Of a DNA stretch of 64,000 bases, positions 6,001 to 23,493 are shown in pieces (the stretch's first letter is position 1; every line of letters starts with the position of its first letter). The notes beneath the pieces were generated by a model that did no database searches, was not told where the DNA came from, and worked only from the letters and a program-made list of their open reading frames with translations. The translations under genes were made by a program, and so were the position numbers. Location: contig CAZSFZ010000005.1 of assembly GCA_964606385.1 (NCBI GenBank), positions 40,650 to 104,649 on the forward strand. Direction: 5' to 3'. This DNA is from an uncultured bacterium (GTDB taxonomy: Bacteria; Omnitrophota; Omnitrophia; Omnitrophales; Aquincolibacteriaceae).

Positions 6001-9000
6001 GCCGGTTGAGGGTAAATTCCAGCAATGGCGCAACGAATTCGACTGGAAGTTCAAACAAATGTTGCGGGGGACGCTGGACCTCGAGAAGCATGGTTGGGTC
6101 AATATCGCCATCATATCGGCGATCGCAGGCGCATTGCTTTTTATCGTCAGCTTGCTTCGCGACATTGCACGAAAAACAGTTTTGAAAAAAATAGGGCATG
6201 GAAAAATATATGACAATGATTTAAAAAGCCCGCAAAGTCAGCAGGGTTTTGACTGGGGATATCGCTTTTACGCCGCATTTATTTTTGCCGCGACCACGGG
6301 GATCATGGGGGTCTTTGCCTCGGTCAAGAATCTTGATGTTTTCTGGAGTCCGGCGTTTGTTTTCACGATCGCGGCTAATTTCTATCTCATTTATCACATC
6401 GTTAATATCTTCTTTCAGTATTTTGTCGGGAATCTCGGCGCCCGGCCGGTTTATCCGATGAAACCTTCCGGAGGAAGCCAGCCACTCCTTTCCGGAGAGA
6501 GTGATGAGCTTCAAGCCAAGGTTCTCGTGAGGCTGCTTCAAAAATTAGCGGCTGCTTCTCCAGACGCCCGTCCTCTTATTGGTGATCAAGTAGAAGCTTC
6601 CATTACACGTGTATTGAAGCAAAGGACGGGAGAATATCCGGCCACGGCCGATATCGTACCGTCCATTGTAGGTCAGTTAGCGGCTGCTCCCGACACGGAG
6701 GTTGCTGTCCGGGATTGGCTCGACAGCCTTCCCGCTGCTCGGTCAGAAACTAGAGCGGAGTCTCAGCCGAGATCCCAGATGCGGTTGACGGATGTGCAGG
6801 AAAAACAATTCCAGAAGGCAATGGATGGTGCGCAGGATAAATGGTGGTATAACTTTTTTCCAGATGGTGGTGAAAAGCGCAGAATTGATGCAATGCAAGC
6901 CTTAGCCGAGTTCAAAGACTCGAGAGCTATTCCCACATTAATTAAGATTTGGGAGAGCTCATTATCAGGTGGAAATGCTGATTCTTTCTTAGAGCGTGCT
7001 ATTCGAAACAGTGCGCAGCGCGCACTCAAGACATTTGAGTCGCATGAGTTTGTTCCCGAGCTTATTGATGCTTTAAATAATGCAACGGATTCTGGCATGC
7101 GTTATGTTTTTAGAATCTTTTCCACGCTTAAAGATCCGAGGACTTTCCCAGTCCTTCTCAATGCCTTAAAAGATGCTCGCCTCAGTTATCGGTTAAGTGC
7201 CGTTAGAGCTTTGACCGAGATGAGCGATGCCCAATTCGTTCCCGAGCTAATGACTGTTTTAAATGATGATAGCCCTGAGGTCTGCGTGCTTGCCGCTGGA
7301 GCCATTTTAAAATTTAACGATCCCCAAACCTTTCCGAAGTTAGTTGACGCTTTGGTCAGGGTTTTGGAAAGGTTGCCTCGTGGTGGTGAACATACAACGG
7401 CAGGTGATGATGCTATGAAACTCTTGGGTGAGTTAAAAGACCCTCGGGCAATTCCGGCATTGTCTCAGTTCGAAAGACGCCATGGACATGCTCAGTGGAC
7501 ATCATTGCGGGTTTGGTCCGATGCCTTAGAATCAATCAAAAAAGGCACTCAGGAACGTTCCGAACTCCGTTCCGAGGAAGATGAAGCTCGGGAAGATGCG
7601 GAACTTGAATTTCGCGAAGCCGCGGCACGAGGGAAGTGGAAAACCATGCCGCCGATGCCGCCGGTGGGGCAGATCCAGGCGTTACAAGAACTGCTTCGTC
7701 CGGACCGGGATGATCTCGGGGAAATGCAGGCCTGGATCGGACATCTCGTCCGGGTGCTTGAAGAGACGCCGCCTTCCTTAAAGCTTTTCCTTTTTGCTCG
7801 TGATTGGGACAGCCCCACGTCCAAAGAAGAGGGGATGACGGCGAAGGAGTTTATGCTTGCCGCAATGCGCAATGCCAAAACGGTCGACGGGCGAAGGGTT
7901 GATCTTTTGAAAGAATTTGGGGACCGTGTCGTGGTCTTCACCCGGAGCGGGTCGTTTGAAAAGCCTTATGATTACCAGGCCATTATGCGGTGGCTGAAGA
8001 CCGGGAAGCATACGCTGGAAGGTCGCATTAGCGAAGATATTGCGGATCCTGCTAAGCGTGCAGCTTTTGAGCATAAGTGGGGCGCTGATAAGGAGTGGGA
8101 TAAGTGGGAAGGGCATAATGCCCGGAAAGCCCTTGAACCGGTGCCTAGCAATGAGCCTGAGTTGGATGAACAAGGCCTTCCCAGAAAAGATGAAAAAGGC
8201 AATATCGTTTATAAACCTACATTGGATGAGAATGGTAATGTCGTGTATCCGCTTGAGCGCATTCCGCTGATCAACGGTGTGCTGGACAACAGGACTGGTG
8301 AGGAGATATCTCTCGATGCTGATCCGAAGAAATGGCCTCCCTTGGTTCAATCGCTACGAAATACGGAGCTCGGGAAATCCTCGGTAGAACACCTTCTCGT
8401 TTTTGATGCTGAGATCGGCATGACAGGGGAAGACGTGTTCTGGACGTTCGCAAAGATGAACGATCCGCGCAACAAACGTCACGGGATGTTCGAACCCCGC
8501 CAGATCGTCCGCAACGAAGCGGAAACAGTCCAAACTTTCAATGAGGCCACTGCCGGTGGTTCTCTCTGGTTCACGCATGGCGCCCTCAGCCGGTTCTTTA
8601 ACAGGATCCGCGCGTTCGGCAAGTTCGGGATCAAAGTAAACAAGTACTACGACGACATTATGGAGCCGACGGTCGATGACCCGTACGGTCCGTATATCGG
8701 GGCGTCGGTCAGAGCCAGCGATATGATCTTGCATCCCACGGCTTTCAAGCTCACTAAATTCTTTATTTTTATCGTTGTTCCCGTCGCGGTCACTTTATGC
8801 GTGAATGCGGTGATCGGATTGGGCGTCTTCCTGGCGGCATTCTCACTCCTGCCGAGGTTTTTTGCGAAGTGGCCGCACGTAAAAGGCTCGGGGACTTCCC
8901 GAGCGCTTTTGAGTCATGACGAATGGGAAGCGGTTTTTACGCCGGTAGCGCTGATGAACGACATTGTCATGGAGGATGACGCGAAGCCGAAGCCGATCAA

Positions 9001-12000
9001 CTGGCTTGAGCGTTTGTATCGCTGGATCGGAACTTTTGATGCCAACAGTATCCTTGCGAGGGCCCGTAACGCCCATATTTTCCGCCAGTCGAGTCGCGTG
9101 TTCAATAACGTGATCATTCGCGGGTTATTCGCGACCGCGATCTGGCTGGTCGTGATCCTTGTCGGGGGAGCTGAGACGTCGGTACCGGGTCTGGGTGGGG
9201 TTGCGCGGCCGTTGCTCGGGGAACTGTTGTATGCCGGCACGATGATCGCGCTATTGCATACCAAGATCACCGGACCGCTGATGAACTATTTAAAGAAGCT
9301 CGGATGGGGTTGGGGCTCCGTTGTCGCGGTCATCATGGGCGCGGCTATTTGGAAATTCCAATTGGACGCTCTCTTCTTTATGGTCGCGTTGTCAGGGCTA
9401 GTCGCATTGGTCGCTATCTTTCTGCCCCACGGGTGGGGTACGAACCTCTATTTCCACATAGGGGAAAGGGAGCTTTCCGGAACTGTAAGACTGAAAGGCG
9501 ACATTAAGCAAACCCGTCTGAAAACGGCGCTTTCCGCTCCTCTCCAGATGGGCGACATCGTTAATCAGGGCGGGGAGGAGACGGTTGCTTCGACCGGTTT
9601 TCTTCTGAATTACCTGGATTATTCGGTTCGTTACATTCGAAAGGCTTTTTCGAGCGTTTTTGCCATGCTTAAGACCAAGCGGGTCACGGCACTTGCACAG
9701 CCCAAGATCCCGAAAGAAACCATTTTTGATGCTATTCGAGCACTTCGCGTGACCGTGACCATTGGACTAGTCCTCCTTTTTGGAATGTGGGGGGCGGGGT
9801 GGATGCCGGATGCCGGGCTCGGAGCTTTACAGGTAGGGTTCTGGGGGCAGTTGGGGATCGCTTTGTTTTATTCCCTCGTTTTCCTCGGAAATTATGTGCA
9901 TATTTTTCAAAAATGGATCGCTACTAAAATTAATTTGGCCAAGGCAAAGGAAAACCTTGAAAAGGAAAAAATCAAAGAAAAAGAAATGGAAGTGATTGCG
10001 GCGAGAAATGCAACCGCTAATGGGACCACCCTTGAAGAGGAAAAGATAAAATTACGGAAAGCAGGGATGGGAGCGAATCTAAGCAGGTCCGCGGATTTTC
10101 AGGCTGAGATTGATGATGCGAAGCATGCTTCACGTCTGAACAAGAAGGATATTTTAAGGACGCTCTTTCATCCGATCGCTTTGCTGGCCGCAGTATACTT
10201 GGCACCGTATTATGGCCCGCTGCTCGATCAGCACCTCTTGGGACGTGCGCTCCCGATCCATCTGGCTTTGATCGGAGGGCCTTTCATCGCCTTCTTTCTC
10301 GGATTCGAATTCCACAAAACGAAGTTGTTGAAATATTTTGCCGAGAAATCCAGGCCTATCGCGACGCTCATCGGATCAATAACATGGGCAGGTACTTTCT
10401 GGTACTACGTGGCCATGGAACGTTTGCCGTGGCTTGGTGCGCTCTACCATAATGCGTTAGGTTGGCTCGGGATTATGTCCACGACGAGTTCCGCCGAAGG
10501 GTTTGTGATCAGCGGAACCGGACTTGGCGCGATGCTGGGTACAAATCCCGTCTTTGTCCTTCTTCATATTTTCGTGTTTGTGGGGGTCTCTCTCCTGGTG
10601 GTTATCGGTGCCGGTCTGGGAATCTACCATTATGTAGAAAGCCTTTTAACGAAAAACATCAAAAACACAGAAATTGGGGTTTTGAAAAAAGCTCTTAAAG
10701 ATTGGAAGAAGTACAATGAAAAAATGGCCGAACGAAAAGCTGCCTCGCAGGCTCAGTCACCTGACGCGCGGTCTGAGATGAGGAATGCGGTGTTGACGGA
10801 TCTCACCAAGATCATGGCGCGGCAGGATGCGCTGCCGGAAAAAGCGGATCTCATCATGGTGTTCGGGAGCGGGGATCTGCGCGTGGCGGCGGAGGTGGCG
10901 GAGATGTACAAGGCCTATGCCGCGAAGGGTGTGTCGCTGAAGGTCCTGGTTGCCGGAAAAGGCGACAAGACCGAGAAGCCTGAAGCCGAACTTTATAAGA
11001 ATGAGATGGTGGCCCGCGGTGTCCCGGCTGAAGCGGTGCTGATTGAACCGACCTCCATGAATATGAAGGAAAACGCTGAGTTTACGCAGAAGGTCCTGGT
11101 TGTTGAAAAGGAAAAATCGGGATTCGATCCTCAGGATATTATTTTTGTTCACGCACCGTTCCATGTTTTAAGAGGCGCGGATGCCGCAGTCAAGGTTTTT
11201 GGAACAAAGATCAAGGCCATCCACGCGGCGTATGTACCGACTGCGACTGAGTTACAGGACGCCAAAGTCATCGCCACGCTTGAAAAACAGGCGCCCAGGG
11301 TTGCCGAGATGCCGTCGATCGCCGAATCCGCAGCCATTAAGGCAAAACTCGACGAATATAAGGCGCTTACGGCACCCTCAGCTGTGCCACCCGCCCGCTC
11401 CGAGTTGCGTACGCCGGAGCAGGAGGCGTTGGTCCAGCCGGTGCGTATGATGACGGATGCGATGCTCGAAATGGTCACGACGGAAACTCTCGCAAATAAA
11501 TTCCGGGAGTTCATGCGCGCGGACATCCTTTTGACGCTCGCTCCCGAAAACAAGATGCTTTTCTACTCCGCGGGACCGGCGACCGGAAAAGGCGCCGTGC
11601 TTGGGGCCTCCTTCCTCGCCGAAGATGGGGAAATCGCGGCTCCGTATCAGGACCTTGTTCAAAAATTTGTCCTGGGCCACCAACGGGATTTCAGGCCCGG
11701 CGATAAGGAGAAAGACGGCCGGCATTATCATTTCCGGTCTCAGAGAGGCTATTGGGCTTCGAAATATGCCGCGCTTAAAGATGCGGGGTATTTCGAGATC
11801 CGAATGATCAACAACCAGGAGCAGATGCTGCCGATCAGGACTTTCACCGACTATGATGTTCCAGTCGAGCACGTTCAGAATGCCGGCCTGATCAATCCGC
11901 AGGATGTTGTGGTCAGCTACGAGATCCCGGAAGGACAGCGCATGAGGACGGAGCTAGTCGTTGAACGTCCTGGAGAAGGGCGTGTGACGCTACGCGATAT

Positions 12001-15000
12001 TATTATTCCCGCGGACAAGCAGGGGACATTCTTGCCGGAAGACGAAGTTGTCAATGTGTCGGGCTCTACGGTCACCGTGAACCGGCGCATCATAGGACTC
12101 AATGAGATGCTTGCCGCCAACCGTTTTACGGTTTTTGAAGGCGGTTACGATTGGTTCCGCTGGATCCAGGAAAATCATCCCGGCGCCTTGACCCTTTTCC
12201 TCTCACCGTTCGAGGAAGCGGATTTTGAAAAACGCTCCAAGAATATGGCGTGGATCCTCAGCGCGAAAGATTCGGCAGGAAGAAAACTGTTCCAGACCCC
12301 TCTCGATGTGTACCTGGCTTTTGAAGCAATTGACATGTTGGTGGAAGGAAAAGATCTAGGAGCTTTTGGGAAGATTGCGCCGAGAGGGGAGCTTGACATC
12401 ACCGGTCAGACCGATCTTCAGGAAACTGTGGTGAGGATTGTCCAACATTTGCGGTCGGGCGCTTACCCGGTCCAAGAGGCCAATGAGAGCGTCATTTTGG
12501 GTTCCCGTTTTATACAGGACCTCAATAATGTCATGGGCAATTTCGGCGCGCCTCAGATCGCTGCAAAGGATTACATGCTGGCTCGTGCGCTTGCCAATGA
12601 ATTGCAGCATCGGACCATGAGCCGCAAGGGAGCTGAACCGCAGCCTTTCTATGTATCCAATAAGCAGTCTAATGCTTATGAAAGGATTTTAGAGGGGATC
12701 TTCCAGATCATGACGCGCCACAACTATGGCGCGGGGAATGTTCTTCCGAACGCGCGGATTGCCGATGAGCAGCAGCGCAAAGAGGCGTTGGCGAAACTTG
12801 GCGACAAATTTGCGCGCCGGCTCTTTGAGCACACCATTGCGGGTATCCGCCGTTCCGAACTCCGCGAAGATGAAACGCCGGTCACCGTTTCGCGGTCTGA
12901 AGTGCGATCTGCGGAGGAGGTCATCCGGCATGTCAAGGAAATGCCCGCTGCAGATTTTGATGCTTTGAAGGTGCCGGAATTGGTTGAGTTGACCCGCGCG
13001 ATGATCCGTACGGGAGCTTTTAAACATTTCCCGGGTCTCGAAGAAAAAATGATGGTTTTTTCGGCCGGACCCGGAACGGGGAAAGGTACGCTTCTCAAAG
13101 TTACTTTTAAAGTTGAAGCGGCGGATCTTGAGAAAGATCCGACTGCCAGGGCGCCTTTCGAAGACTTAGTTGATCGGTTTGTGCTTTACCATTCTCGTGC
13201 TGCGCGCATTGATGTAGAGACTGGTTTGTCGGAAAAAGACGGGGAAGATTATCACTTCCGGAACAACACGGATTATCAGTTCGAAGTTCAACCGGAAAAT
13301 GTGAAGAAAGGTACCTATTTAAGAAGTTTGGCCGCCCAAGGACTGCCGCTGGAGATACAAGAGATTAACCGTCAGGCCCAAGGCATGGCGGTCAATGATT
13401 TTCCGGATGGAGAACCCGGGGTAGTCGTTGCAGATGTCGGCGGAACGGGTCTGTCTCAGTTAAAGACCGGAGATCTCGTGATTGACTTTGACCGAAGGCA
13501 GGGGTTGCTTCGAGTCATGCACCAGGAGAACGAAAGAACGGAAGTCTTGGGGATCTCTATCCCGAGGGACAAAAAAGGTCTTTTTCTCCCTGGAGATCGT
13601 ATCGAGGGTGTGCACGGGACAACGGTGACCGTGAAACGTTCGATCCGTGGCATTACGGGACTTTTTTCAGGTGACCGGCTTGGATTTCTGGAGGGGGGCT
13701 ACGAGTGGTTCCGGTACCTGAAAGATCAGTACCCGAAGATTTGGACATGCTTTCTTGCGCCATTGTCCCCGGCAGAACTTCAACAGCGAATTTATAATGA
13801 AGCCGCTATCGATTCAGCTTTTAAAGATCCCGAGGCGAACGCGTTGGCGCACCATATCATGTTTGCCCGCATGGCTGAATTGAACCGCGAAATAGATCTT
13901 CGCCTTCAGACAGAGATGGAAATGATCCGGGCCGAAGTGGCGAAAGGAGAAAATGGAAAATATGGCTCTATGGATCCTGTGCTTCTTAATAATTCGAAAC
14001 TTATTAAGTCCCCTCGCTTTAAGCGGGAACTCGATTCTCTGCTGCAAAAATACAACATGCCGCCTGTTAGCGTGGAGAGGCTGAAACAGGCCGAGGCGCT
14101 TGCATATGAGATCCAGCGCAGGCTTATCACTCGTGACCCCATACAACCCTTTTTGGATGGGGCGGACAAACCGACGGATCGTCTTAATCGTGTTCTGACG
14201 GGGATCTTCCAAAATTTCACGAGTGAGCAGTATAGCCAGACTGTTGTCAACCGATTCGGATATACAAGGGAGCAAAGAAAGGCAAATCTTGCGCAACTAT
14301 CAGATGAATTCATGGACGGCTATTTGAGGCATGTGCTGGCCGCTGTGCGTCGCTCCGAAGTGCGTGTCCAAACGGTTTCGGACCTTCTGGATGTGGTGGG
14401 TGAGGATGACCAGGCGACGGGGCAGCAGGTGGAGCGGAACGTGGCCCATGAAACGGGTGTCCGTCATCGCGCTGCGGTGCTTTTCGCCTTCAACCGGAAA
14501 GGGGAACTGCTGATCCAGAAGCGGGGTATGGAGAAGGACGTTTTCCCGGATACGTGGACATTCTCGGCAAGCGGTCATGTGGATGCCGGAATGAGCTACG
14601 CCAAAACGATCTTGAAAGAAGCTCCCGAGGAAATGGGTATGTCGCTCGATCCGCAGAGGCTGAATGTCATCGGGGCTACGGGGATGCCGTGGTCGTCCCT
14701 GAAGCAGTACGCTTATACTTTTTCGACTGATGACGTTGCTAAAACCCAGGAGGCGATCGAAAAGGCCCATGAAAGATTAGTCCGTGACGGAGTGCTGCCC
14801 GCCCGGCTTGAATTTGATAATCTTCTTTGGAGAGTTTGGCCGGATCCCGCCAAGGGGAAGGTGACGGTATTCTTGTATAAGTTGAGCTCGAAGCTGGACA
14901 CGGCTTTGGATGCGGCCCGCGACAAAGTAAGTCCCGTGCTGAGAGAAATGGTCGGGGAGTATGAACAGCGGACCATCATGAACCGGGATAACCGGACCCA

Positions 15001-17764
15001 TTACGCGTACCGCTTGAACGAACAGGAAGAGGAATTCCTCGCAAAACGTGCCGAGGAGATCCGCCGGAAGGCCGGGGCCGAGCCGTCCGCCGAGGTGACC
15101 GACCTGAAGTTCGCTTCCCTTGAAGATATCCGGCAGCAGTTCCGTCAGCATCCGACGCTCTTTGTCGAGGACATGCTGATCCTCTTCGACCCGCAGTTGA
15201 ATCGGGACCTGGAGGTCACGGAAGACCTTCTTCGCGAAAGCAAGGTCCAGGAAAAGATTCCGGCTGTGGCGGGTCTGAGCCAGAACGTGCGGGAGGTCAA
15301 GCAGCGGCTCCAGAGGTCGCTTGAGGATCCGAGAGAGGATTTCGACGCGGTCGTGCTGGTCGTGAACCCGGCGTTTACGGGTGTGGTGCGCGAGGCCTTG
15401 GAGGGATTGAAGGGGATCGCGTATAACCCCGCGCTCAGGATCGCGGTCGTGGAAGAAGAGCCCGCGGGGAGCATTACGGATTCATTGGTCGGTGCCGACA
15501 TAGCATTGCGTCAAATGTTCGGAGAAAACTACGCGTCGCAAGTGGCCGATAAGAAGGTCGCGATCATCACGATGTCCGGTTTCGGAGCGCGGATGCCGAC
15601 CGATTTCGGTAAAGGGCTCTTGTCCTTGCCGGGCGGACGGACATACCTGGAACAAATACTGCGACAGCGTTTCTTCTTCCTGGACAAGAACTTCCGCGGG
15701 TTGATGGTCCTTTCGATCGATGGCATCAAGATCCCTCAGTTCATGCCTGAGATGGGCAAGGCCGGTATCCAGGTCATCGGATTGCCGATGGCCCGGACGG
15801 ATGAGAACGTCGGAGAACTGGGGCTTTTCGTCGTGAGCGATCCGTTCCGTCCCGGTGCGCAACCCATCCAATATGCTTTTGAAAAGTTACCGCGCTCTCA
15901 ACGGGATGATTATGCCGCCCGGCAGTTGATCCCGGGCCGGTACGTCAATGTATCGCAGGCGGATTATCCTCTTTCCTGGGAAGCTTATACATGGCTGCTG
16001 GAACAGGTGCGGGCGATGCAGCAAACGCTTGAAACGAAATATCGGGCCGAAGGGAAGAGCTATCGCGACGATAATGTGGCTTACAACTGGGCCGAGCATT
16101 TGTTCGAGCTGGCGTTTTTGCCGGAAGACCTGGTTCCGGACTATCTGGAGCGCTCGGTGGAGCGTTCGGGTCCCATGGACAAGGATGTTTTTGATCAGTT
16201 CCTGCGCATCGCGCGCGAGGCGAGGCAGCGTTTCGGTATGGAATTCGTCAACGTGGGGACCGATTCCGTTTACCATAACACGAACCGTCCCGATCAATAC
16301 CGCGATTTTCTGATCTCGCTCCTGTCGAACGCGGCCGTGCGGGACATGTTCGATCTTGTGGAGCGCCAAGGAAAGCTGGTCGATCTGCAGGCGGAGCAGG
16401 TCAGTCCGTCCGTGTTCAGCTCTCCGATCGAGAGCGGCGTGCTGGTCTCCAAAAGTATCATTGACCTCGGCGTGCAGATGAAAAAAGGAAGCGTTGTTTT
16501 CAATAGCGCGCTGGTGGCGGGTACCAAGATCGACACGCAGGGAGCCGTCATCAACAGCGTGGGGCGCTTCATCGTGCCGCGCGGGGCGATCGTGGACTCC
16601 GTGATCGCTCCTGCGGAAGGTCTGGAAGTGCTGCCGGATAGCTACACGCGGGGGTATTTTGTCAAAAGGCCGGACGGAAAGATCGAGCAGATCCTCGTGT
16701 CGCTCCCGGTGAAGATCCTGGTTACAAGCGGGCAGGCGGCTGATCTAAAGGTGACGGATGTGAAGAGCGCCTTGGATGGTAAACGCTTGAGCCGTTTCGA
16801 GATCTTCCCTCGAGCGGAGCATTTGGCGAATAGGATCCCGTCCTTGGCTGAAGAATCCCCGGAAAAATATTCATTGGATGAGATCCGCAAAGATCTCGAT
16901 CGTGACATGGCTTGGCAGTTCCGTCGGCAGTTGGTCCAGGCCGCCCAAGATCAATCGATGACCGCCTTCCGCCTTGCGGAGAACATGAAAGCTTCTCTTG
17001 CTCAAAAAGGCATGGTCGAAATGAAGCGTTCGGAATTGCGGGAAACGGAAGCGGAAGTCCTCCCGGCAGAAACCGGCGATATTCAGGCAAAAACGGAAGC
17101 TGCCCTCGTGGAATCGCGCGATGATGAGATCGCCGAGGCGATCCAGGCGGCCGTGAAGGAATCTGCGGCGATGCGTCAGGAGATCAGGCTGCAGACCGAA
17201 GTTTTGAGTCAGGATGCGATGCGTGCCGAGGTGCGGATGACCGCGAAAATCATTGAGATGATGAAAGACCTGGGCTTGCAGTCTTACGGCGATCAGACGC
17301 GCTTTGTGGTGCCTTTTGACCAGGATCTCATCCAGAGTCTGATCAAGAATAACCCGAAGGCCAAGATCGTGATCGTGACGAAGTCGTTGGAGGAGAAAGC
17401 GACGGCCGAAGAGCGTACGGCGGGATTCACGGAAGCCACGGGTGTTGTGTTCGATTACGTAGTGAGCAGGAACTTCCAGCTCGATGTCCGTAATATTGCC
17501 GCCGACCAGGCGAAGGAACTGGGTCTCGAGGTCGTCTCCGGTCAACGGAACCGCAGCGTTCTCTTGGTCCGTAAGATCGCGGATGCCGCCATGACGGCCG
17601 AGAAGATCAACCGGGCTTATGCTCTGGTAGGCCAGATGTTCGGTATTGTCGCGATCGTGGGCTTCCAACCCGATGTGTCCGTCGATTTCGCGACCGATCA
17701 CTCGATCGCCGACATCCTGCAATCCGAGATCAGCGCCCAGCAGGCGATCGGCAAGTCCGCATAA
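20..17764 (+). CDS. Giant multidomain membrane-associated protein (5914 aa); the 5' end may extend beyond the window, since the frame is open from nt 2. Modules: N-terminal charged/coiled-coil region; 3 TM helices (~6098-6430); HEAT/PBS-lyase-like repeats (~6790-7500); 12+ TM helix block (~8740-10640); DUF218/YdcF-like (~10850-11230); two tandem ~500-aa modules (~11396-14365); Nudix-like (~14430-14890); sugar-nucleotidyltransferase-like plus left-handed beta-helix (~15550-16620)
   Basis: A single stop-free frame of 17.7 kb in the standard code, which cannot arise by chance at this GC content. Motifs read directly from the sequence: DPRAIPAL/DSRAIPTL HEAT-like repeats; LIMVFGSGDLRV...IFVHAPFHVLRG (DUF218-like); GHVDAGMSYAKTILKEAPEEMGM (degenerate Nudix box); ITMSGFGARMPTDFGKGLLSLPGG (NTP-transferase-like G-x-G-x-R) followed by hexapeptide-repeat segment VVFNSALVAGTKIDTQGAVINSVGRFIVPRGAIVDSV; many hydrophobic 20-23 aa segments. 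RSE[LV]R motifs at 7556, 11396, 12851, 12893, 14351 and 17027. Confidence 0.85.
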   Translation: MNIEEFRQALRTPGGIAGLKARLEIAGMSDSKTDALRKELEALRQMRRGIHSKQFTSVWAKLGYDTGAFRANVGMNMRLFGGDYRARLKVNEYEQEKKADQIEEREQALLFEMERNLTSLISTAEQKDLARQRLQVLMNGWEENRRSTALGLIGGDAGFDDERKLVEAYHALNAVDQAHMWNWTDFNLFLVRGNINPSILGVAAQAAAGTAEITPVPAQSKAKVEVLTKEDIGLDAFQSDRKVIGETDKRAEFQPNARDLMTSLGLGVSLSAAEVQKSEALFKEAEEGLKAARSGRDAAARRVQEQQKKVDSLARELESLKVSEKAKAEKKDGFLNWLLGLFGVGEQFSGTLKSALIAKDLEKAEQELVRLKADLAKAEQDRQEWEVKAREADGQRRASLSAQGLEELIAKILGANVDSHNLASTLGKEGLQLRYLNALIQAAKFDGAERILEKLLNGQKLQAFWEQDVGASFLADPAATDALQEIRLGAVKSEDPSKDVSFLRYVGFLDFVVARHVDWALLSPEFRAKAKINTPADANRWFLELFGTLVQARDLLQQHYRNLPDSAFPAGTDKVAMAKLKLGIPLDINAPAEFGMIWGLAYDAKLRGIDLGRGEAIFNEEITEEKDFDGDKKPDVTVTRKYEEILRESFPDYSLNKRWRAVQDRRINSDERRYGMEEAWEFRAIVHGKFAPDGSVTLNQIDQDQTVEQARTLAVQAALRQSGVRKEHWGKVAYAVGMMKTLMDTNIPAPMEGFEALARLRQIAADVAAVQSKKSGGAVLTPVEEKILADAAEKEKVAMRILVQDKFVQSSGAFAARESLTLLLKNVGTLSPSDKTAYYDLIETSMVDAKDGIELGRAMGLLNTLLHGSGFESSEERAAWIKMDLSKRIEKMKQLLGTAFNLNKVISYPIASDETGELLGRLLAIAGDLDKGTDAWTEFFDKDGNLAGTEEKNQVKIDRARRLSTKLFHTILTPEGQAAILKYAADVDEMSIHESKNKRGKEGDVAAIARDLALNDRLQTLDDVKEELSIRTQIFQEAPKLGEDFRLHATELNFYSDMFREFRDLYTQMTVPQLFDLIKAAMSSRGELLQTTIPSLEQRVKPELLTTDDYKAFLEKARYLSGQTMDFSAAFQLVTDFFNDQKRRVPEKRAAFEDAASWIAEQEKIKTLLQAGYMLTHFDEAGDPLPMEGSDISSWIDNIRRGFFGEDQIAAVMDNVQVLKYDGDIEILNNVAKGKFLRAYAGRVLLAGAMSEADVSKVLDAIFSKIDSRGRYDFKAIEAEIQARIQNPEARQKVLEAMNKFPVFKYWEKMGLARDAVNLKRSPEWMRLWFDFVAVLEEASLVEANKMVDTAQLSFAVRRSLKGTVTVDSMKSFLMGPEDPWYKKPFSWAQNKRLFRQMRFVDEYHDFAFMDMGPAINDYQRLVGTWNMVFKQLPGTAEVDFGTEIWNAMDKDPVFSQWKISDREALQRQAIAHFQMIDASFADKYYAALVGKRTQLTEAENQEIWGKVRAAQEAVRAQMKQTVIDSLISRAKGEPDRAAFRKESLTLSAELLGLRGAAKDAWKSRRDFYDENRAFPEGKTEKEIASGLQTMYTELLAKIPAGDRGFYPKELDKYTLEALVKEMIVWGYTMNDVFYRFVQLNYEVEGAYRKALKIPDSTRLTRVQSGEVSAYTEELFKSVGFLISGAYPGEAEALKRVGRPLDGIITTELARFQDRLVLRDQLKDLFTKKFGNTTQIHESKTEVDRKAYLWATKLQERVKTVKDVEVWVTQAQALMTTAPQLSVSEALALMDTWIDLGIADAPSTEKVWDDAQMKSEWDTYRTGLVAYAQGPGYEKAWRNFWLYDPATQVMRDFNSPEFQALVNARIAQRKISPVQLKALIDQVMKTDALIRKIMRQQDEKSISDKTRLIEGIRSISIVDLLFYYDAISNPGEKIDFIDIAAETSGRRDEMLPQMQAWQKMVQDAISSAKKFELEEGMLPEKFDLTEFTTPKAPAPVEGKFQQWRNEFDWKFKQMLRGTLDLEKHGWVNIAIISAIAGALLFIVSLLRDIARKTVLKKIGHGKIYDNDLKSPQSQQGFDWGYRFYAAFIFAATTGIMGVFASVKNLDVFWSPAFVFTIAANFYLIYHIVNIFFQYFVGNLGARPVYPMKPSGGSQPLLSGESDELQAKVLVRLLQKLAAASPDARPLIGDQVEASITRVLKQRTGEYPATADIVPSIVGQLAAAPDTEVAVRDWLDSLPAARSETRAESQPRSQMRLTDVQEKQFQKAMDGAQDKWWYNFFPDGGEKRRIDAMQALAEFKDSRAIPTLIKIWESSLSGGNADSFLERAIRNSAQRALKTFESHEFVPELIDALNNATDSGMRYVFRIFSTLKDPRTFPVLLNALKDARLSYRLSAVRALTEMSDAQFVPELMTVLNDDSPEVCVLAAGAILKFNDPQTFPKLVDALVRVLERLPRGGEHTTAGDDAMKLLGELKDPRAIPALSQFERRHGHAQWTSLRVWSDALESIKKGTQERSELRSEEDEAREDAELEFREAAARGKWKTMPPMPPVGQIQALQELLRPDRDDLGEMQAWIGHLVRVLEETPPSLKLFLFARDWDSPTSKEEGMTAKEFMLAAMRNAKTVDGRRVDLLKEFGDRVVVFTRSGSFEKPYDYQAIMRWLKTGKHTLEGRISEDIADPAKRAAFEHKWGADKEWDKWEGHNARKALEPVPSNEPELDEQGLPRKDEKGNIVYKPTLDENGNVVYPLERIPLINGVLDNRTGEEISLDADPKKWPPLVQSLRNTELGKSSVEHLLVFDAEIGMTGEDVFWTFAKMNDPRNKRHGMFEPRQIVRNEAETVQTFNEATAGGSLWFTHGALSRFFNRIRAFGKFGIKVNKYYDDIMEPTVDDPYGPYIGASVRASDMILHPTAFKLTKFFIFIVVPVAVTLCVNAVIGLGVFLAAFSLLPRFFAKWPHVKGSGTSRALLSHDEWEAVFTPVALMNDIVMEDDAKPKPINWLERLYRWIGTFDANSILARARNAHIFRQSSRVFNNVIIRGLFATAIWLVVILVGGAETSVPGLGGVARPLLGELLYAGTMIALLHTKITGPLMNYLKKLGWGWGSVVAVIMGAAIWKFQLDALFFMVALSGLVALVAIFLPHGWGTNLYFHIGERELSGTVRLKGDIKQTRLKTALSAPLQMGDIVNQGGEETVASTGFLLNYLDYSVRYIRKAFSSVFAMLKTKRVTALAQPKIPKETIFDAIRALRVTVTIGLVLLFGMWGAGWMPDAGLGALQVGFWGQLGIALFYSLVFLGNYVHIFQKWIATKINLAKAKENLEKEKIKEKEMEVIAARNATANGTTLEEEKIKLRKAGMGANLSRSADFQAEIDDAKHASRLNKKDILRTLFHPIALLAAVYLAPYYGPLLDQHLLGRALPIHLALIGGPFIAFFLGFEFHKTKLLKYFAEKSRPIATLIGSITWAGTFWYYVAMERLPWLGALYHNALGWLGIMSTTSSAEGFVISGTGLGAMLGTNPVFVLLHIFVFVGVSLLVVIGAGLGIYHYVESLLTKNIKNTEIGVLKKALKDWKKYNEKMAERKAASQAQSPDARSEMRNAVLTDLTKIMARQDALPEKADLIMVFGSGDLRVAAEVAEMYKAYAAKGVSLKVLVAGKGDKTEKPEAELYKNEMVARGVPAEAVLIEPTSMNMKENAEFTQKVLVVEKEKSGFDPQDIIFVHAPFHVLRGADAAVKVFGTKIKAIHAAYVPTATELQDAKVIATLEKQAPRVAEMPSIAESAAIKAKLDEYKALTAPSAVPPARSELRTPEQEALVQPVRMMTDAMLEMVTTETLANKFREFMRADILLTLAPENKMLFYSAGPATGKGAVLGASFLAEDGEIAAPYQDLVQKFVLGHQRDFRPGDKEKDGRHYHFRSQRGYWASKYAALKDAGYFEIRMINNQEQMLPIRTFTDYDVPVEHVQNAGLINPQDVVVSYEIPEGQRMRTELVVERPGEGRVTLRDIIIPADKQGTFLPEDEVVNVSGSTVTVNRRIIGLNEMLAANRFTVFEGGYDWFRWIQENHPGALTLFLSPFEEADFEKRSKNMAWILSAKDSAGRKLFQTPLDVYLAFEAIDMLVEGKDLGAFGKIAPRGELDITGQTDLQETVVRIVQHLRSGAYPVQEANESVILGSRFIQDLNNVMGNFGAPQIAAKDYMLARALANELQHRTMSRKGAEPQPFYVSNKQSNAYERILEGIFQIMTRHNYGAGNVLPNARIADEQQRKEALAKLGDKFARRLFEHTIAGIRRSELREDETPVTVSRSEVRSAEEVIRHVKEMPAADFDALKVPELVELTRAMIRTGAFKHFPGLEEKMMVFSAGPGTGKGTLLKVTFKVEAADLEKDPTARAPFEDLVDRFVLYHSRAARIDVETGLSEKDGEDYHFRNNTDYQFEVQPENVKKGTYLRSLAAQGLPLEIQEINRQAQGMAVNDFPDGEPGVVVADVGGTGLSQLKTGDLVIDFDRRQGLLRVMHQENERTEVLGISIPRDKKGLFLPGDRIEGVHGTTVTVKRSIRGITGLFSGDRLGFLEGGYEWFRYLKDQYPKIWTCFLAPLSPAELQQRIYNEAAIDSAFKDPEANALAHHIMFARMAELNREIDLRLQTEMEMIRAEVAKGENGKYGSMDPVLLNNSKLIKSPRFKRELDSLLQKYNMPPVSVERLKQAEALAYEIQRRLITRDPIQPFLDGADKPTDRLNRVLTGIFQNFTSEQYSQTVVNRFGYTREQRKANLAQLSDEFMDGYLRHVLAAVRRSEVRVQTVSDLLDVVGEDDQATGQQVERNVAHETGVRHRAAVLFAFNRKGELLIQKRGMEKDVFPDTWTFSASGHVDAGMSYAKTILKEAPEEMGMSLDPQRLNVIGATGMPWSSLKQYAYTFSTDDVAKTQEAIEKAHERLVRDGVLPARLEFDNLLWRVWPDPAKGKVTVFLYKLSSKLDTALDAARDKVSPVLREMVGEYEQRTIMNRDNRTHYAYRLNEQEEEFLAKRAEEIRRKAGAEPSAEVTDLKFASLEDIRQQFRQHPTLFVEDMLILFDPQLNRDLEVTEDLLRESKVQEKIPAVAGLSQNVREVKQRLQRSLEDPREDFDAVVLVVNPAFTGVVREALEGLKGIAYNPALRIAVVEEEPAGSITDSLVGADIALRQMFGENYASQVADKKVAIITMSGFGARMPTDFGKGLLSLPGGRTYLEQILRQRFFFLDKNFRGLMVLSIDGIKIPQFMPEMGKAGIQVIGLPMARTDENVGELGLFVVSDPFRPGAQPIQYAFEKLPRSQRDDYAARQLIPGRYVNVSQADYPLSWEAYTWLLEQVRAMQQTLETKYRAEGKSYRDDNVAYNWAEHLFELAFLPEDLVPDYLERSVERSGPMDKDVFDQFLRIAREARQRFGMEFVNVGTDSVYHNTNRPDQYRDFLISLLSNAAVRDMFDLVERQGKLVDLQAEQVSPSVFSSPIESGVLVSKSIIDLGVQMKKGSVVFNSALVAGTKIDTQGAVINSVGRFIVPRGAIVDSVIAPAEGLEVLPDSYTRGYFVKRPDGKIEQILVSLPVKILVTSGQAADLKVTDVKSALDGKRLSRFEIFPRAEHLANRIPSLAEESPEKYSLDEIRKDLDRDMAWQFRRQLVQAAQDQSMTAFRLAENMKASLAQKGMVEMKRSELRETEAEVLPAETGDIQAKTEAALVESRDDEIAEAIQAAVKESAAMRQEIRLQTEVLSQDAMRAEVRMTAKIIEMMKDLGLQSYGDQTRFVVPFDQDLIQSLIKNNPKAKIVIVTKSLEEKATAEERTAGFTEATGVVFDYVVSRNFQLDVRNIAADQAKELGLEVVSGQRNRSVLLVRKIADAAMTAEKINRAYALVGQMFGIVAIVGFQPDVSVDFATDHSIADILQSEISAQQAIGKSA
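11396..14365 (+). repeat. Intragenic tandem duplication of a ~1.47-kb (~490 aa) module inside giant ORF 1 (copy A ~11396-12865, copy B ~12893-14365); copies are diverged at the DNA level but clearly homologous at the protein level
   Basis: Both copies share the ordered motifs M(L/V)F(Y/F)SAGPxTGKG, DLV(Q/D)(K/R)FVL(G/Y)H, (K/D)GxxYHFR, GxTVTV(N/K)R, (F/L)EGGY(D/E)WFR(W/Y), QPF...GIFQ, and both end in (I/V)RRSE(L/V)R. Confidence 0.7.
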
Positions 17765-17787
17765 CACAAGCCTCACTATGGCTTGTC

Positions 17788-17857
17788 GTGGAACGGGGAA
17801 CGCAGAACGGTAAACGATGCTTTAGACGTTCCGCGTTTCCCGTTTCCCGTTACCCGG
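17788..17857. repeat. Inverted-repeat element made of tandem GGNAACG-type heptamers (4 units per arm, 10-nt loop), 24 nt after the stop of giant ORF 1; likely intrinsic terminator or REP-like element
   Basis: Forward arm GTGGAACG GGGAACG CAGAACG GTAAACG, loop ATGCTTTAGA, reverse arm CGTTCCG CGTTTCC CGTTTCC CGTTACC CGG; the arms are reverse complements unit by unit. Confidence 0.6.
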
Positions 17858-17862
17858 CCTTT

Positions 17863-17871
17863 TGCTATACT
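17863..17871 (+). promoter_or_regulatory. Extended -10 element TGcTATACT ending 7 nt before the nadE ATG; implies a leaderless or near-leaderless nadE transcript
   Basis: TGCTATACT at 17863-17871; nadE ATG at 17879 with no Shine-Dalgarno sequence in between. The same 9-mer recurs at 20094-20102 and 24615-24623 upstream of other genes. Confidence 0.4.
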
Positions 17872-17878
17872 TCCACTC

Positions 17879-19549: not shown

Positions 19550-19583
19550 CAAATCGGAGCCCACGGCCGACAGACTGCAGCAA

Positions 19584-20063
19584 ATGAACAGCCTACAAAA
19601 AACACCGGTCAAAACAAAGGCCGGGATTTTTATGCTTGAGTTCAGCCCGAAGGGGCTTTATGCGGTCCGTTTTCCGTCTAAGATGCCTGATTCCACCCCA
19701 CCTGCGAGGTGGGGTGGGTTCGGGAAGAAGCGATTGAAGCTCGATTTGACGGGCTACACACCATTCCAACGCAGGGTGTACGCGGCGCTTCGAAAAGTCC
19801 CTGCGGGAAAGACCATTACCTATGGGGAACTCGCCAAGCGGGCGGGATATCCGGGGGCAGCCCGCGCGGTCGGGAGCGCGATGCGCAAGAACCGGCTTCC
19901 GATCGTGATCCCATGTCACCGGGTCATTCAAGGAGACGGAAGCTTGGGAGCCTATTCGGCGGGAGTGAAGTGGAAAAGGTTTTTGCTCGAGTGTGAGAAA
20001 GTATTGGCGTGTCAGAGTGTCAACGTATCAAAGTGTTATAACGATAGGGCCATGACACGCTGA
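19584..20063 (+). CDS. ogt: Methylated-DNA--protein-cysteine S-methyltransferase (Ogt/MGMT)
   Basis: The active-site motif PCHRVI and a helix-turn-helix DNA-binding region (TYGELAKRAGYPGAARAVGSAMRKN) are present. Start is uncertain: ATG 19584 or ATG 19632. The ORF-track start 19509 would overlap nadE. Confidence 0.8.
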   Translation: MNSLQKTPVKTKAGIFMLEFSPKGLYAVRFPSKMPDSTPPARWGGFGKKRLKLDLTGYTPFQRRVYAALRKVPAGKTITYGELAKRAGYPGAARAVGSAMRKNRLPIVIPCHRVIQGDGSLGAYSAGVKWKRFLLECEKVLACQSVNVSKCYNDRAMTR

Positions 20064-20093
20064 TACTTTGATACCCTGAAACTTTATTTTTTG

Positions 20094-20102
20094 TGCTATA
20101 CT
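20094..20102 (+). promoter_or_regulatory. Extended -10 element TGcTATACT upstream of rsfS-argS
   Basis: The identical 9-mer TGCTATACT is found upstream of nadE and tal-pgi; it lies ~50 nt upstream of the rsfS TTG start. Confidence 0.35.
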
Positions 20103-20152
20103 CCTCAAAATTCGATACAGTATTTCATCCGTTTTAGGGAGGAATTTGATAC

Positions 20153-20485: not shown

Positions 20486-20488
20486 AAG

Positions 20489-20554: not shown

Positions 20555-20566
20555 TGAAACCATCCT

Positions 20567-22228: not shown

Positions 22229-22232
22229 TTGC

Positions 22233-23492: not shown

Positions 23493-23493
23493 T

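What the first reader, a model, noticed from the sequence alone, without database searches (positions are those of the whole stretch)
11396..14365. Ancient tandem duplication of a ~500-aa module, each copy ending in RRSE[LV]R
Copies A and B align along their full length with conserved motif order, both close with (I/V)RRSE(L/V)R, and both open with similar helical leaders. This shows that the giant gene grows by duplication of modules delimited by the RSE[VL]R signature.
Basis: seen in the sequence. Interest (0 to 1): 0.55.

Follow-up and report, generated by a model that had tools for sequence, protein, structure and literature searches.

The report
Duplicated kinase-like module with punctuation motif
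Two old, diverged copies of a guanylate-kinase-like module sit side by side in a giant Omnitrophota protein, and the RSE[LV]R bracketing them is one of several lineage-specific "punctuation" motifs at module borders, which may be the unknown cutting sites of these giant proteins.

Summary
Copies A (nt 11396-12865) and B (nt 12893-14365) align end to end: 32% identity, E=3e-64. Nucleotide similarity is gone, and this is the only strong internal repeat in either giant ORF.

The module is an unannotated, divergent guanylate-kinase-like domain with a P-loop, a GMP-site signature, a beta insert and a helical tail. Among 1.84 billion representative proteins it has 46 relatives. Nearly all lie in giant ORFs of Omnitrophota, a few in Elusimicrobiota. 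Tandem copies arose repeatedly there.

The window is an Omnitrophota chromosome, syntenic with UBA2337.

- Only this one module pair is a duplicate. The other RSE[LV]R-bounded segments are unrelated (DUF218, NUDIX, HEAT, PG-binding, RelA/SpoT-type HD, methyltransferases).
- Modules are shuffled, inserted or deleted as cassettes at the motif.

RSE[LVM]R occurs 15 times in the two unrelated giants (0.01-0.02 expected per protein) and in no other gene. Its codons vary synonymously, so selection acts on the peptide. Other lineages carry different short motifs at the same module borders: RAEVR, [GA]ARLA, SSP[IV], SSAG.

My best reading (inference, about 0.45) is genome-specific processing or recognition sites of a polyprotein. 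No protease was found. I found no report of such motifs.

The parts
20..17764 (+). Giant ORF p1 (5914 aa counted from the ATG at nt 20). The frame is open to the left edge of the window, so the true start may lie upstream.
   Evidence: Pfam: HEAT 2288-2445, DUF218 3610-3746, NUDIX 4815-4910. TM-like segments at aa 2027-2131 and 2914-3529. Syntenic with the giant ORF of Omnitrophica UBA2337.
11396..12865 (+). Copy A of the guanylate-kinase-like module (aa 3793-4282). It starts with RSELR and ends with IRRSELR.
   Evidence: Orthologues: P0001 (64% identity) and L001 (42%).
12866..12892 (+). Nine-residue spacer (EDETPVTVS) between the two delimiters at the A/B junction.
   Evidence: A similar double delimiter occurs in P0001 (RRSELR-DSEIEEFSTPV-RSEVR).
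12893..14365 (+). Copy B of the module (aa 4292-4782). It starts with RSEVR and ends with VRRSEVR.
   Evidence: Sister to the A clade in the NJ tree, bootstrap 86%.
11567..11593 (+). P-loop of copy A: SAGPATGKG.
   Evidence: Aligned to the guanylate kinase P-loop.
13061..13087 (+). P-loop of copy B: SAGPGTGKG.
   Evidence: B also gives a weak TIGR03263 P-loop hit.
11678..11734 (+). GMP-site-like signature of copy A: HQRDFRPGDKEKDGRHYHF.
13190..13258 (+). GMP-site-like signature of copy B: HSR...EKDGEDYHF.
12137..12211 (+). Core motif EGGYDWFR ... FLSPF of copy A. It aligns to the LEIE...IFLAPPS region of guanylate kinase.
13691..13765 (+). Core motif EGGYEWFR ... FLAPL of copy B.
7556..7570 (+). 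Delimiter RSELR (p1 aa 2513), just after the HEAT region.
10769..10783 (+). Delimiter RSEMR (p1 aa 3584), at the start of the DUF218 segment.
10769..11395 (+). DUF218 module: a 209-aa segment lying exactly between two delimiters. The relative P0001 lacks it.
11396..11410 (+). Delimiter RSELR (aa 3793), at the start of copy A.
12851..12865 (+). Delimiter RSELR (aa 4278), at the end of copy A.
12893..12907 (+). Delimiter RSEVR (aa 4292), at the start of copy B.
14351..14365 (+). Delimiter RSEVR (aa 4778), at the end of copy B and the start of the NUDIX segment.
14351..17026 (+). NUDIX-containing segment (aa 4778-5669) between two delimiters.
17027..17041 (+). Delimiter RSELR (aa 5670). It is conserved in position with RSELR 4667 of L003.
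31637..46882 (+). Second giant ORF p2 (5081 aa). It has no detectable similarity to p1 but carries the same delimiter 8 times. The delimiters start at nt 33977, 35690, 37067, 37700, 38957, 39797, 40991 and 42587. Looser RSE[AN]R copies start at nt 33965, 44177, 44717 and 45893.
   Evidence: Pfam: PG_binding_1, HD_4, PRTase-CE, Sa_NUDIX, methyltransferases.

Best explanation
What it is. The window is a stretch of an Omnitrophota chromosome. It carries two 'multi-enzyme' (Archaeovorin-like) giant genes. Nt 11396-14365 of the first giant gene encodes two adjacent, anciently diverged paralogous copies of a module of about 490 aa.

The module. Its core is a divergent guanylate-kinase-like P-loop domain. 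It has a P-loop (SAGP[AG]TGKG), a GMP-site-like signature (H-x-R..R...EKDG..YHF), a core motif (LEGGYxWF ... F-x-S-P-F ... R), a beta-rich insert and a helical extension of about 200 aa. Both copies keep every residue that is invariant in the family. I therefore infer that both are functional, probably as nucleotide-monophosphate-type kinases or binders.

How the giant gene is built. The gene is a chain of autonomous modules. Evolution duplicates, shuffles, inserts and deletes these modules as cassettes.

The RSE[LVM]R pentapeptide. It brackets the modules and is a signal at the peptide level. It is used across all giant proteins of this lineage. Other Omnitrophota lineages use different short motifs at the same module borders.

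Most likely mechanism (inferred, not shown). A trans-acting, genome-specific factor reads these motifs. The most plausible factor is an endoprotease that cuts the giant precursor into its modules, as in a polyprotein. This would explain how modules with their own signal peptides and modules of cytoplasmic enzyme type can share one ORF.
For: Duplication:
- A against B gives E=3e-64 over the full length. It is the only strong off-diagonal. Synonymous sites are saturated and there is no DNA repeat.

Module identity:
- A 20-sequence profile hits more than 20 solved guanylate kinases, best E=1.8e-8.
- Pfam Guanylate_kin matches 9 of 20 members, best E=8.8e-6.
- 27 invariant columns are all kept in both A and B.

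Family and host:
- 46 relatives among 1.84 billion representatives.
- 27 genome loci and 15 metagenome loci, nearly all Omnitrophota and nearly all inside open frames of 1.4 to more than 7 kaa. None in viral contigs.
- L008 (UBA2337) has a homologous giant ORF followed by NadE-Ogt-ArgRS-MiaA-HflX-Tal/PGI in the same order as the window.

Recurrent multiplication:
- 2-4 copies per ORF in many lineages. Copies cluster within genomes: L003 pair 100%, L005 pair 98%, L027 trio 100% bootstrap.

Delimiter:
- 15 in-frame sites in p1 and p2 against 0.01-0.02 expected, and none in other genes.
- Every degenerate codon position varies, so selection acts on the peptide.
- 10 sites in three giant ORFs of the related MAG SRP342105_co1_308, none in about 95,000 aa of giant ORFs from the other 24 genome loci (L002, L004-L027).
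- Across 40 sites only the five core residues are conserved.

Other lineages:
- RAEVR x5 (L028); [GA]ARLA x9, x6, x11 and x5 (L016, L022, L032, P0023); SSP[IV] x6-9 (P0004, P0016, L019, L035 and both ORFs of L036); SSAG x4 (L007).
- 24 of 52 GK-module borders have a delimiter within 25 aa, against 4.4 expected.

Cassette behaviour:
- Homology blocks and the DUF218 insertion/deletion end at delimiters.

Autonomy of modules:
- Signal-peptide-like or TM stretches lie directly after delimiters: p2 aa 2022 and 2721 (the latter followed by PG_binding_1), L001 578, L016 324/4466/4502, L043.
Against: - No protease domain or HExxH motif was found in p1 or p2, and there is no protease gene in the window.
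- Cleavage is not shown by any data here.
- Several relatives (L006, L010, L015, L020) show no significant repeated short motif with the exact 4-mer test.
- Some delimiters are missing or degenerate at orthologous borders: RSETR and RRAVEL in L003, none between GK and DUF218 in P0021.
- The first 2512 aa of p1 carry no strict motif.
- The guanylate-kinase assignment rests on sequence profiles below Pfam and NCBIfam cut-offs. A itself has no hit; B scores 21.8 bits against a cut-off of 160.
- The only structure model was poor (pLDDT 43).
- Duplication on the spot is not proven. A is nearer to L001's solitary module than to B, and P0001 has a different subtype in second place.
Confidence: 0.7

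Rival explanations
1. The delimiters are real peptide signals but are not cut. They would be short linear docking motifs or uniform linker caps, read by a genome-specific partner such as a chaperone, a secretion or translocation component, or a modifying enzyme. The giant would then work as one polypeptide.
For: The same facts as for processing fit equally well: genome-wide uniformity, change between lineages, position at module borders. No protease was found. p1 has many TM segments and could act as a membrane scaffold.
Against: Signal-peptide-like stretches directly after delimiters look like N-termini of separate exported proteins. One chain holding both exported-type and cytoplasmic-type enzyme modules is topologically awkward (inference). 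Double delimiters 4-14 aa apart are easier to read as tandem cut sites.
Confidence: 0.3
2. A and B are paralogues but did not arise by tandem duplication at this spot. Two already diverged GK-like modules were placed next to each other by the module shuffling that pervades these genes.
For: A groups with P0001 copy 1 and L001 (bootstrap 99), and the split 'A+B only' has 0 support. L001's orthologue is solitary and sits in a different protein context, with a p2-like N-terminus. In P0001 the module after the A orthologue is of the P0021 subtype and is only 26% identical to B. Module order differs between relatives.
Against: B is sister to the A clade (bootstrap 86). Both share the same leader and the RRSE[LV]R tail. 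Tandem pairs that clearly arose in place are common in relatives (L003, L005, L027, and L002/L004). p1's [A][B][NUDIX] is collinear with L003's [GK1][GK2][NUDIX'].
Confidence: 0.3
3. The motif is a DNA-level feature: a recombination site or target-site-duplication scar of a cassette-inserting mechanism, or an internal Shine-Dalgarno plus start codon. It would not be a peptide signal.
For: The DUF218 cassette in p1 is flanked by RSEMR and RSELR, where P0001 has a single RSEVR. This looks like a flanking direct repeat. Homology blocks end at the motif.
Against: The 15 sites use CGT/CGC/CGG, TCC/TCT/TCG, GAA/GAG, CTC/TTG/TTA/GTG/GTC/ATG and CGT/CGC/CGG/CGA/AGG. Every degenerate position varies while the peptide is kept. 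There is no AGGAG and no constant start codon. An unselected scar would also decay at non-synonymous positions.
Confidence: 0.07
4. The feature is an artefact: a chance similarity, an assembly-generated repeat, or two genes fused by a sequencing error.
For: None found.
Against: E=3e-64. At 47% nucleotide identity an assembler could not have created or collapsed the copies. Independent assemblies (GCA_035366775.1 and ERZ795030) show the same continuous ORF across a GK-GK junction with a double delimiter. Dozens of loci have the module inside long open frames.
Confidence: 0.01

Closest known systems
Omnitrophota giant proteins: 'Archaeovorins' (West-Roberts et al. 2023, bioRxiv 10.1101/2023.11.21.568195) and the 'multi-enzyme' class of Nielsen 2026 (bioRxiv 10.64898/2026.06.07.730766)
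   Same: Same phylum (synteny with UBA2337). Very long ORFs tiled with many unrelated enzyme domains (methyltransferases, NUDIX, HEAT scaffolding, TM segments). Internal repeats that are ancient and no longer visible in the DNA. Processing into smaller products has been proposed.
   Different: p1 and p2 are 5-6 kaa, below the >=10 kaa (Nielsen 2026) and >=30 kaa (West-Roberts 2023) sets those papers analysed. No C39 or S8 peptidase, SecA or dockerin domain was found here. Neither paper mentions a guanylate-kinase-like module or any linker or cleavage motif, and the 2023 paper states that cleavage points are unknown.
Guanylate kinase / GK-like domains (Pfam PF00625, TIGR03263; MAGUK GK domains)
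   Same: P-loop, R-x-x-R ... E-x-D-G-x-x-Y-x-F GMP-site signature, core strand and the PPS-like turn followed by Arg. All are aligned by profile searches.
   Different: Scores are far below the family cut-offs. The first P-loop Gly is Ala. There are extra residues inside the GMP signature. A beta-rich (weakly PDZ-like) insert of 60-100 aa is present. A family-specific helical extension of about 200 aa follows. The module is always embedded in giant proteins and is often present in 2-4 tandem copies.
Polyvalent proteins of phages and conjugative elements (Iyer et al. 2017, PMC5512222)
   Same: One polypeptide strings together many unrelated, often nucleotide-directed enzyme domains (NUDIX, methyltransferase, RelA/SpoT-type HD). 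It is thought to be cut into functional units.
   Different: The context here is chromosomal, among housekeeping genes. There are no relatives in viral contigs. There is no MPTase/zincin domain or HExxH motif. The repeated short delimiter is not a described feature of that class.
   Same: A short consensus recurs at domain junctions of a long precursor. It is specific to the lineage and therefore presumably matched to a cognate protease.
   Different: No protease was identified and no cleavage is demonstrated. These are cellular chromosomal genes of 5-7 kaa or more. The motif changes wholesale between related lineages (RSE[LV]R, RAEVR, GARLA, SSP[IV], SSAG).

Membership tests
Guanylate kinase family (PF00625 / TIGR03263) | P-loop G-x-x-G-x-G-K-[ST/G] | tested here: met
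   SAGPATGKG (A) and SAGPGTGKG (B) align to SGPSGVGKG of S. aureus GMK. The first Gly is Ala in the family consensus SAaPGTGKG.
Guanylate kinase family (PF00625 / TIGR03263) | GMP-binding signature T-[ST]-R-x2-[KR]-x2-[DE]-x2-G-x2-Y-x-[FY] (PROSITE pattern, quoted from memory) | tested here: inconclusive
   H-[QST]-R-x2-R ... E-K-D-G-x2-Y-H-F is present and invariant. However, 3-9 extra residues lie between the Arg pair and the Glu, so the strict pattern is not matched.
Guanylate kinase family (PF00625 / TIGR03263) | Score above the curated family threshold | tested here: not met
   Pfam: A and B have no hit at E<=1; 9 of 20 family members hit weakly (best 8.8e-6). NCBIfam: B scores 21.8 bits against a cut-off of 160.45; A has no hit.
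Guanylate kinase family (PF00625 / TIGR03263) | P-loop NMP-kinase fold with CORE, NMP-binding and LID parts | not testable with these tools
   AF2 with the 2-sequence alignment gave pLDDT 43. Jobs with the 20-sequence alignment were not accepted.
Guanylate kinase family (PF00625 / TIGR03263) | ATP:GMP phosphotransferase activity | not testable with these tools
   This needs an enzyme assay.
Omnitrophota multi-enzyme giant proteins (Archaeovorin-like) | Encoded in an Omnitrophota genome | tested here: met
   Gene order giant ORF-NadE-Ogt-ArgRS-MiaA-HflX-Tal/PGI is shared with Candidatus Omnitrophica UBA2337 at 38-61% protein identity. The nearest relative, HOG23561.1, is annotated Candidatus Omnitrophota.
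Omnitrophota multi-enzyme giant proteins (Archaeovorin-like) | Many distinct enzyme domains in one ORF, none dominant; HEAT scaffolding; TM segments | tested here: met
Omnitrophota multi-enzyme giant proteins (Archaeovorin-like) | Length >=10 kaa (Nielsen 2026) or >=30 kaa (West-Roberts 2023); C39/S8 peptidase and SecA-like domains | tested here: not met
   p1 is at least 5914 aa (open at the window edge) and p2 is 5081 aa. No peptidase or SecA domain was found.
Polyvalent proteins of mobile elements (Iyer et al. 2017) | Encoded by a phage, plasmid or conjugative element | tested here: not met
   The neighbours are housekeeping genes, in conserved synteny. No viral relatives.
Polyvalent proteins of mobile elements (Iyer et al. 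2017) | Internal MPTase (zincin) peptidase for self-processing | tested here: not met
   No HExxH or HxxEH motif and no peptidase hit.
Protease-processed polyprotein | Recurrent short consensus at junctions between autonomous domains | tested here: met
Protease-processed polyprotein | Cognate protease and demonstrated cleavage products | not testable with these tools
   No protease was found in the window. Cleavage needs proteomics.

The most novel reading that the evidence does not exclude
Omnitrophota (and some Elusimicrobiota) giant genes would be true cellular polyproteins. Each genome would use its own 4-5-residue cut site (RSE[LV]R here; RAEVR, [GA]ARLA, SSP[IV] and SSAG elsewhere). A dedicated protease that co-evolves with the site would read it. 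The giant ORF would thus be an 'operon in one reading frame', whose modules can be duplicated, shuffled, inserted and deleted between cut sites without loss of function. The A/B pair would be two separately released guanylate-kinase-like enzymes.
Probability: 0.4. Interest if true: 0.85.

Novelty: new variant of a known kind. Interest (0 to 1): 0.62.

Why it matters
It is an open question whether the giant ORFs of Omnitrophota act as single huge proteins or are cut into many products. The 2023 study says that cleavage points are unknown.

The punctuation motifs found here predict exact module borders in each genome. This makes the question directly testable in three ways:
- by proteomics, looking for protein termini at the motif;
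- by structure prediction of each module separately;
- by searching for a protease whose specificity changes together with the motif.

The work also names a sizeable piece of 'dark matter' in these proteins: a guanylate-kinase-like module that has been multiplied repeatedly. It shows as well that these genes evolve as chains of cassettes, and only in small part by internal duplication.

Tried and rejected
- Word-indexed homology search with A+B and with the 20-sequence alignment found nothing. The exhaustive HMM search was needed.
- Exact look-up of the window's MiaA found no contig on record.
- AF2 with two sequences gave pLDDT 43, unusable, so no fold search was run. Four later structure jobs were not accepted.
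- I considered that RSE[LV]R might translate an internal Shine-Dalgarno plus GTG/TTG start (AGGAGCGAAGTG). This is rejected: Arg is CGN or AGG, Ser is TCN, and the fourth codon varies.
- I looked for a self-processing peptidase with Pfam at E<=0.5 on delimiter-defined segments, phmmer against PDB, and the HExxH motif. None was found.
- PADLOC has no model for the module. NCBIfam gives only a sub-threshold P-loop hit.
- There are no relatives in viral contigs.
- 'QALG' x6 in L014 turned out to be a HEAT-repeat consensus, not a delimiter.
- 'LKTA' x4 in L008/L039 is only marginal (p about 0.05). L008 has RSEAR at the module start instead.
- My first reading, that P0001 carries a B orthologue, was corrected. 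Its second module is of another subtype.
- Literature searches for RSELR/RSEVR and for Omnitrophota cleavage sites found nothing relevant.

Full report
**1. Observation**

The window holds two giant + strand ORFs. p1 spans nt 20..17764 (5914 aa) and its frame is open to the left edge of the window. p2 spans nt 31637..46882 (5081 aa).

The finding's coordinates are exact: aa 3793-4782 of p1, from the first base of RSELR to the last base of RSEVR.

BLASTP of A (aa 3793-4282) against B (aa 4283-4782) gives one full-length alignment: 32% identity, 204 bits, E=3e-64. In a chunked all-against-all comparison of p1 and p2 this is the only strong off-diagonal signal. The only other signal is a HEAT-repeat match at aa 2343-2481, and p1 and p2 share nothing detectable. 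A profile of A+B finds just these two copies.

The copies are 47% identical at the nucleotide level. Third positions of identical residues agree in 56 of 166 cases, which is saturation. TRF and the direct-repeat search see no DNA repeat. The observation, including 'ancient', is confirmed.

**2. What the module is**

Pfam, NCBIfam and PADLOC do not name A or B. An exhaustive HMM search of 1.84 billion representative proteins found 46 relatives. Most are long or are fragments of long proteins.

A 20-sequence alignment shows the following conserved blocks:
- SAaPGTGKG
- LYHTRxPR...EKDGxxYHFR
- VNxQLQG
- vLEGGYxWF
- iFIsPF...R..N
- a conserved helical tail: NAxxIES..F, ARALAYEVxRR, DRYNRVLEGVxQI

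The profile of this alignment hits more than 20 solved guanylate kinases, best E=1.8e-8. These hits align the P-loop, the GMP-site signature and, weakly, the core strand plus the PPS turn. Pfam Guanylate_kin matches 9 of 20 members.

Between the GMP-binding part and the core lies a beta-rich insert. Half of the relatives lack its first part. It gives only weak PDZ/NfeD hits.

All 27 family-invariant columns are kept in both A and B. I infer that both copies are under purifying selection and are probably active. Fold and activity could not be tested.

**3. Where it lives**

Scans with the alignment gave 27 loci in GTDB genomes and 15 in metagenomes. Nearly all are Candidatus Omnitrophota. A few are labelled Elusimicrobiota/Endomicrobiaceae, Planctomycetia or Nitrospirae. 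None came from viral contigs. The module almost always sits in an open frame of 1.4 to more than 7 kaa.

L008 (Omnitrophica UBA2337) has a p1 homologue followed by NadE, Ogt, ArgRS, MiaA, HflX and Tal/PGI, in the window's order, at 38-61% identity. The window is therefore a chromosomal Omnitrophota locus, not a mobile element. The closest relative, P0001 (HOG23561.1), is an unnamed 'hypothetical protein' of an Omnitrophota MAG.

The architecture fits the Archaeovorin or 'multi-enzyme' class described in two preprints: HEAT, DUF218, NUDIX and TM segments in p1; PG_binding_1, RelA/SpoT-type HD, PRTase-CE, Sa_NUDIX and methyltransferases in p2.

**4. History of the pair**

The NJ tree with 200 bootstraps gives these supports:

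| Grouping | Bootstrap (%) |
|---|---|
| A + P0001 copy 1 | 100 |
| A + P0001 copy 1 + L001 | 99 |
| the above + B | 86 |
| A + B only | 0 |

The tree topology is and the supports. The A/B split is therefore older than the split of this organism from the L001 MAG, to whose module A is 42% identical.

At the syntenic site, UBA2337 has one module where p1 has two.

Tandem sets are widespread. Copies often cluster within a genome, for example the L003 pair (100), the L005 pair (98) and the L027 trio (100). The L002/L004 pairs are shared between the two genomes. The module has therefore been multiplied repeatedly and independently.

One caution applies. In P0001 the module after the A orthologue belongs to another subtype (P0021-like) and is only 26% identical to B. 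L001's A orthologue is solitary, in a protein whose N-terminus resembles p2. Juxtaposition by shuffling therefore remains a live alternative to duplication on the spot.

**5. The RSE[LV]R signature**

Frequency and specificity:
- RSE[LVM]R occurs 7 times in p1 and 8 times in p2, against 0.01-0.02 in shuffles.
- All 15 sites are in frame in the giants. No real gene elsewhere in the window has one.
- The looser RSE.R pattern adds RSETR in p1, and three RSEAR and one RSENR in p2.

Level of selection:
- Codons vary at every degenerate position, so the peptide is what is conserved, not the DNA. This also rules out an internal ribosome-binding site and a recombination site.
- Over 40 sites in the lineage only R-[SA]-E-[LVMI]-R is conserved. 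Flanks show only a bias to small or basic residues before the motif and acidic residues after it.

Position:
- The sites fall at domain borders: HEAT | 2513; 3584 | DUF218 | 3793 | A | 4278, 4292 | B | 4778 | NUDIX ... 5670. The pattern is the same in p2.

Distribution among relatives:
- The motif is present in all three giant ORFs sampled from MAG SRP342105_co1_308 (10 sites in 9,229 aa), and also in P0021 and in L043.
- It is absent from about 95,000 aa of giant ORFs from the other 24 genome loci, L002 and L004-L027.

**6. Other lineages use other punctuation**

| Motif | Where (copies) |
|---|---|
| RAEVR | L028 (x5, plus one RSEVR) |
| [GA]ARLA | L016 (x9), L022 (x6), L032 (x11), P0023 (x5) |
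| SSP[IV], usually after A/S/T/G | P0004, P0016, L019, L035, and both adjacent giant ORFs of L036 (x6-9 each) |
| K-x-SSAG | L007/P0015 (x4) |

The 4-mer counts for ARLA, SSPI and SSPV exceed nearly all of 100 shuffles (at most 2 of 100 reach the observed count).

At the same place, the end of the GK-like module, the sequences read:
- ...GIR|RSELR (window)
- ...LAIHD|RAEVR (L028)
- ...SGTEG|ARLA (L016)
- ...AANG|ARLA (L022)
- ...AAPKA|SSAG (L007)
- ...KEKLS|SSPI (L035)

Of 52 module borders in such ORFs, 24 have a delimiter within 25 aa, usually within 7 aa. Chance would give 4.4.

Some relatives show no clear motif with this crude test. Some orthologous borders have lost it.

**7. Cassette behaviour**

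- P0021 carries NUDIX-GK-DUF218, whereas p1 carries DUF218-GK-GK-NUDIX. Block ends coincide with R[SA]E[LM]R.
- p1 has the 209-aa DUF218 segment between RSEMR and RSELR. P0001 has a single RSEVR at that point.
- L003 has duplicated a larger GK-NUDIX block.

The giant genes therefore change mainly by module shuffling and by insertion or deletion at delimiters. Duplication is one contributor among several.

**8. Mechanism**

Shown:
- The motif is a peptide-level signal.
- It is shared across unrelated giants within a genome.
- It differs between lineages.
- It sits at module borders.

Inferred:
- A trans-acting, genome-specific reader exists.

I favour an endoprotease that releases the modules (probability about 0.45 for actual cleavage), for three reasons:
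1. Delimited segments look like complete proteins. Several begin with signal-peptide or TM-like stretches right after the motif. The clearest is p2 aa 2721, RSELR-GMISRMTLGLTMAAILSFSALSA, followed by a PG-binding domain. Others are p2 aa 2022, L001 578, L016 324/4466/4502 and L043.
2. Exported-type and cytoplasmic-type enzymes share one chain.
3. Double sites 4-14 aa apart recur.

Against this reading, no protease domain or zincin motif is present in p1, p2 or the window, and nothing here demonstrates cleavage. A docking motif that is not cut fits the same sequence facts.

**9. Comparison and novelty**

Ancient, DNA-invisible internal repeats are already described as the rule in Omnitrophota long proteins. 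The duplication itself is therefore an ordinary instance of a known pattern.

In the searchable literature I found no report of a guanylate-kinase-like module or of any linker or cleavage motif in these proteins. The 2023 preprint states that cleavage points are unknown.

Functionally, the nearest analogues are phage and plasmid polyvalent proteins and protease-processed polyproteins. Membership of the former fails on context and on the MPTase domain.

Verdict: a new variant of a known kind. Interest is moderate to high, and it comes from the punctuation motifs rather than from the duplication.

Noticed in passing
window 17741-17761 and 46859-46879; also L001, L003, L005, L007, L013, L022, L024, L025, L027, L029-L033, L040-L042: Complete giant ORFs, even unrelated ones, end in a similar short tail: ...[KSQ][AS]A, ...SAA/AAA, or ...[QS]AI. 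Examples: p1 ...QQAIGKSA; p2 ...QSVEKAA; others ...QVEKAA, ...QALIAA, ...GILSAA. SSP-type lineages end in ...ALN or ...RLN. This could be a C-terminal recognition or secretion signal or a degron. It is unexplained.
   Followed up: partly
window 37715-37810 and 39812-39889 (p2 aa 2027-2058 and 2726-2751): Signal-peptide-like stretches lie immediately after two delimiters inside p2: LRDMYGYLMNKVLMPAVLAVWLALPSFATAQ and GMISRMTLGLTMAAILSFSALSAEGA. The second is followed by a PG_binding_1 domain. p2 also has its own N-terminal signal peptide.
   Followed up: partly
window 12851-12907; 33965-33991; 38930-38971: Double delimiters lie 4-14 residues apart: RRSELR-EDETPVTVS-RSEVR; RSEA-RSELR; RPEVR-STSG-RSELR. 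The same habit is seen in P0001 and, with a different motif, in L032 (ARLA-LRKVEGRTG-ARLA).
   Followed up: partly
window 60587-64000: A third long ORF starts near nt 60587 and runs off the right end of the window (at least 1138 aa). It has a signal peptide and TPR-like repeats and no RSE[LV]R in the part seen.
   Followed up: partly
window 1-20: The p1 reading frame has no stop between the window's left edge and the ATG at nt 20. The gene may be longer than 5914 aa.
   Followed up: no
window 42587-46879 (p2 aa 3651-5081): The C-terminal part of p2 matches models of anti-phage defence components: mad2-like methyltransferase (6e-28), Sa_NUDIX as in 2TM effectors and RT-associated NUDIX, and PRTase-CE. 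Together with the RelA/SpoT-type HD and the GK-like modules of p1, the cargo is strongly nucleotide-centred.
   Followed up: partly
window 17783-27556 and L008 14236-21447: The gene order NadE-Ogt-ArgRS-MiaA-HflX-Tal/PGI downstream of the giant gene is conserved with Omnitrophica UBA2337. The giant gene is therefore a long-standing resident of this chromosomal site. Tal and PGI are fused in one 957-aa ORF.
   Followed up: partly
L003 (ORF aa 2146-4674): In MAG SRP342105_co1_308 a larger block (GK-like module plus NUDIX segment) is duplicated, and the first GK is itself doubled. This gives three GK-like modules in one ORF. At two module ends the delimiter has decayed to RSETR and RRAVEL.
   Followed up: partly
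L008 9851-9865 (ORF aa 3286) and L039: UBA2337-like genomes have RSEAR at the start of their single GK-like module but no other RSE-type site. This is either a remnant or forerunner of the delimiter, or chance.
   Followed up: no
P0001 aa 1391-1611 compared with p1 aa 4292-4520: Orthologous A copies are 64% identical between the window and P0001. The modules in second position are only 26% identical and belong to different subtypes. This suggests replacement of a module at a fixed position.
   Followed up: partly
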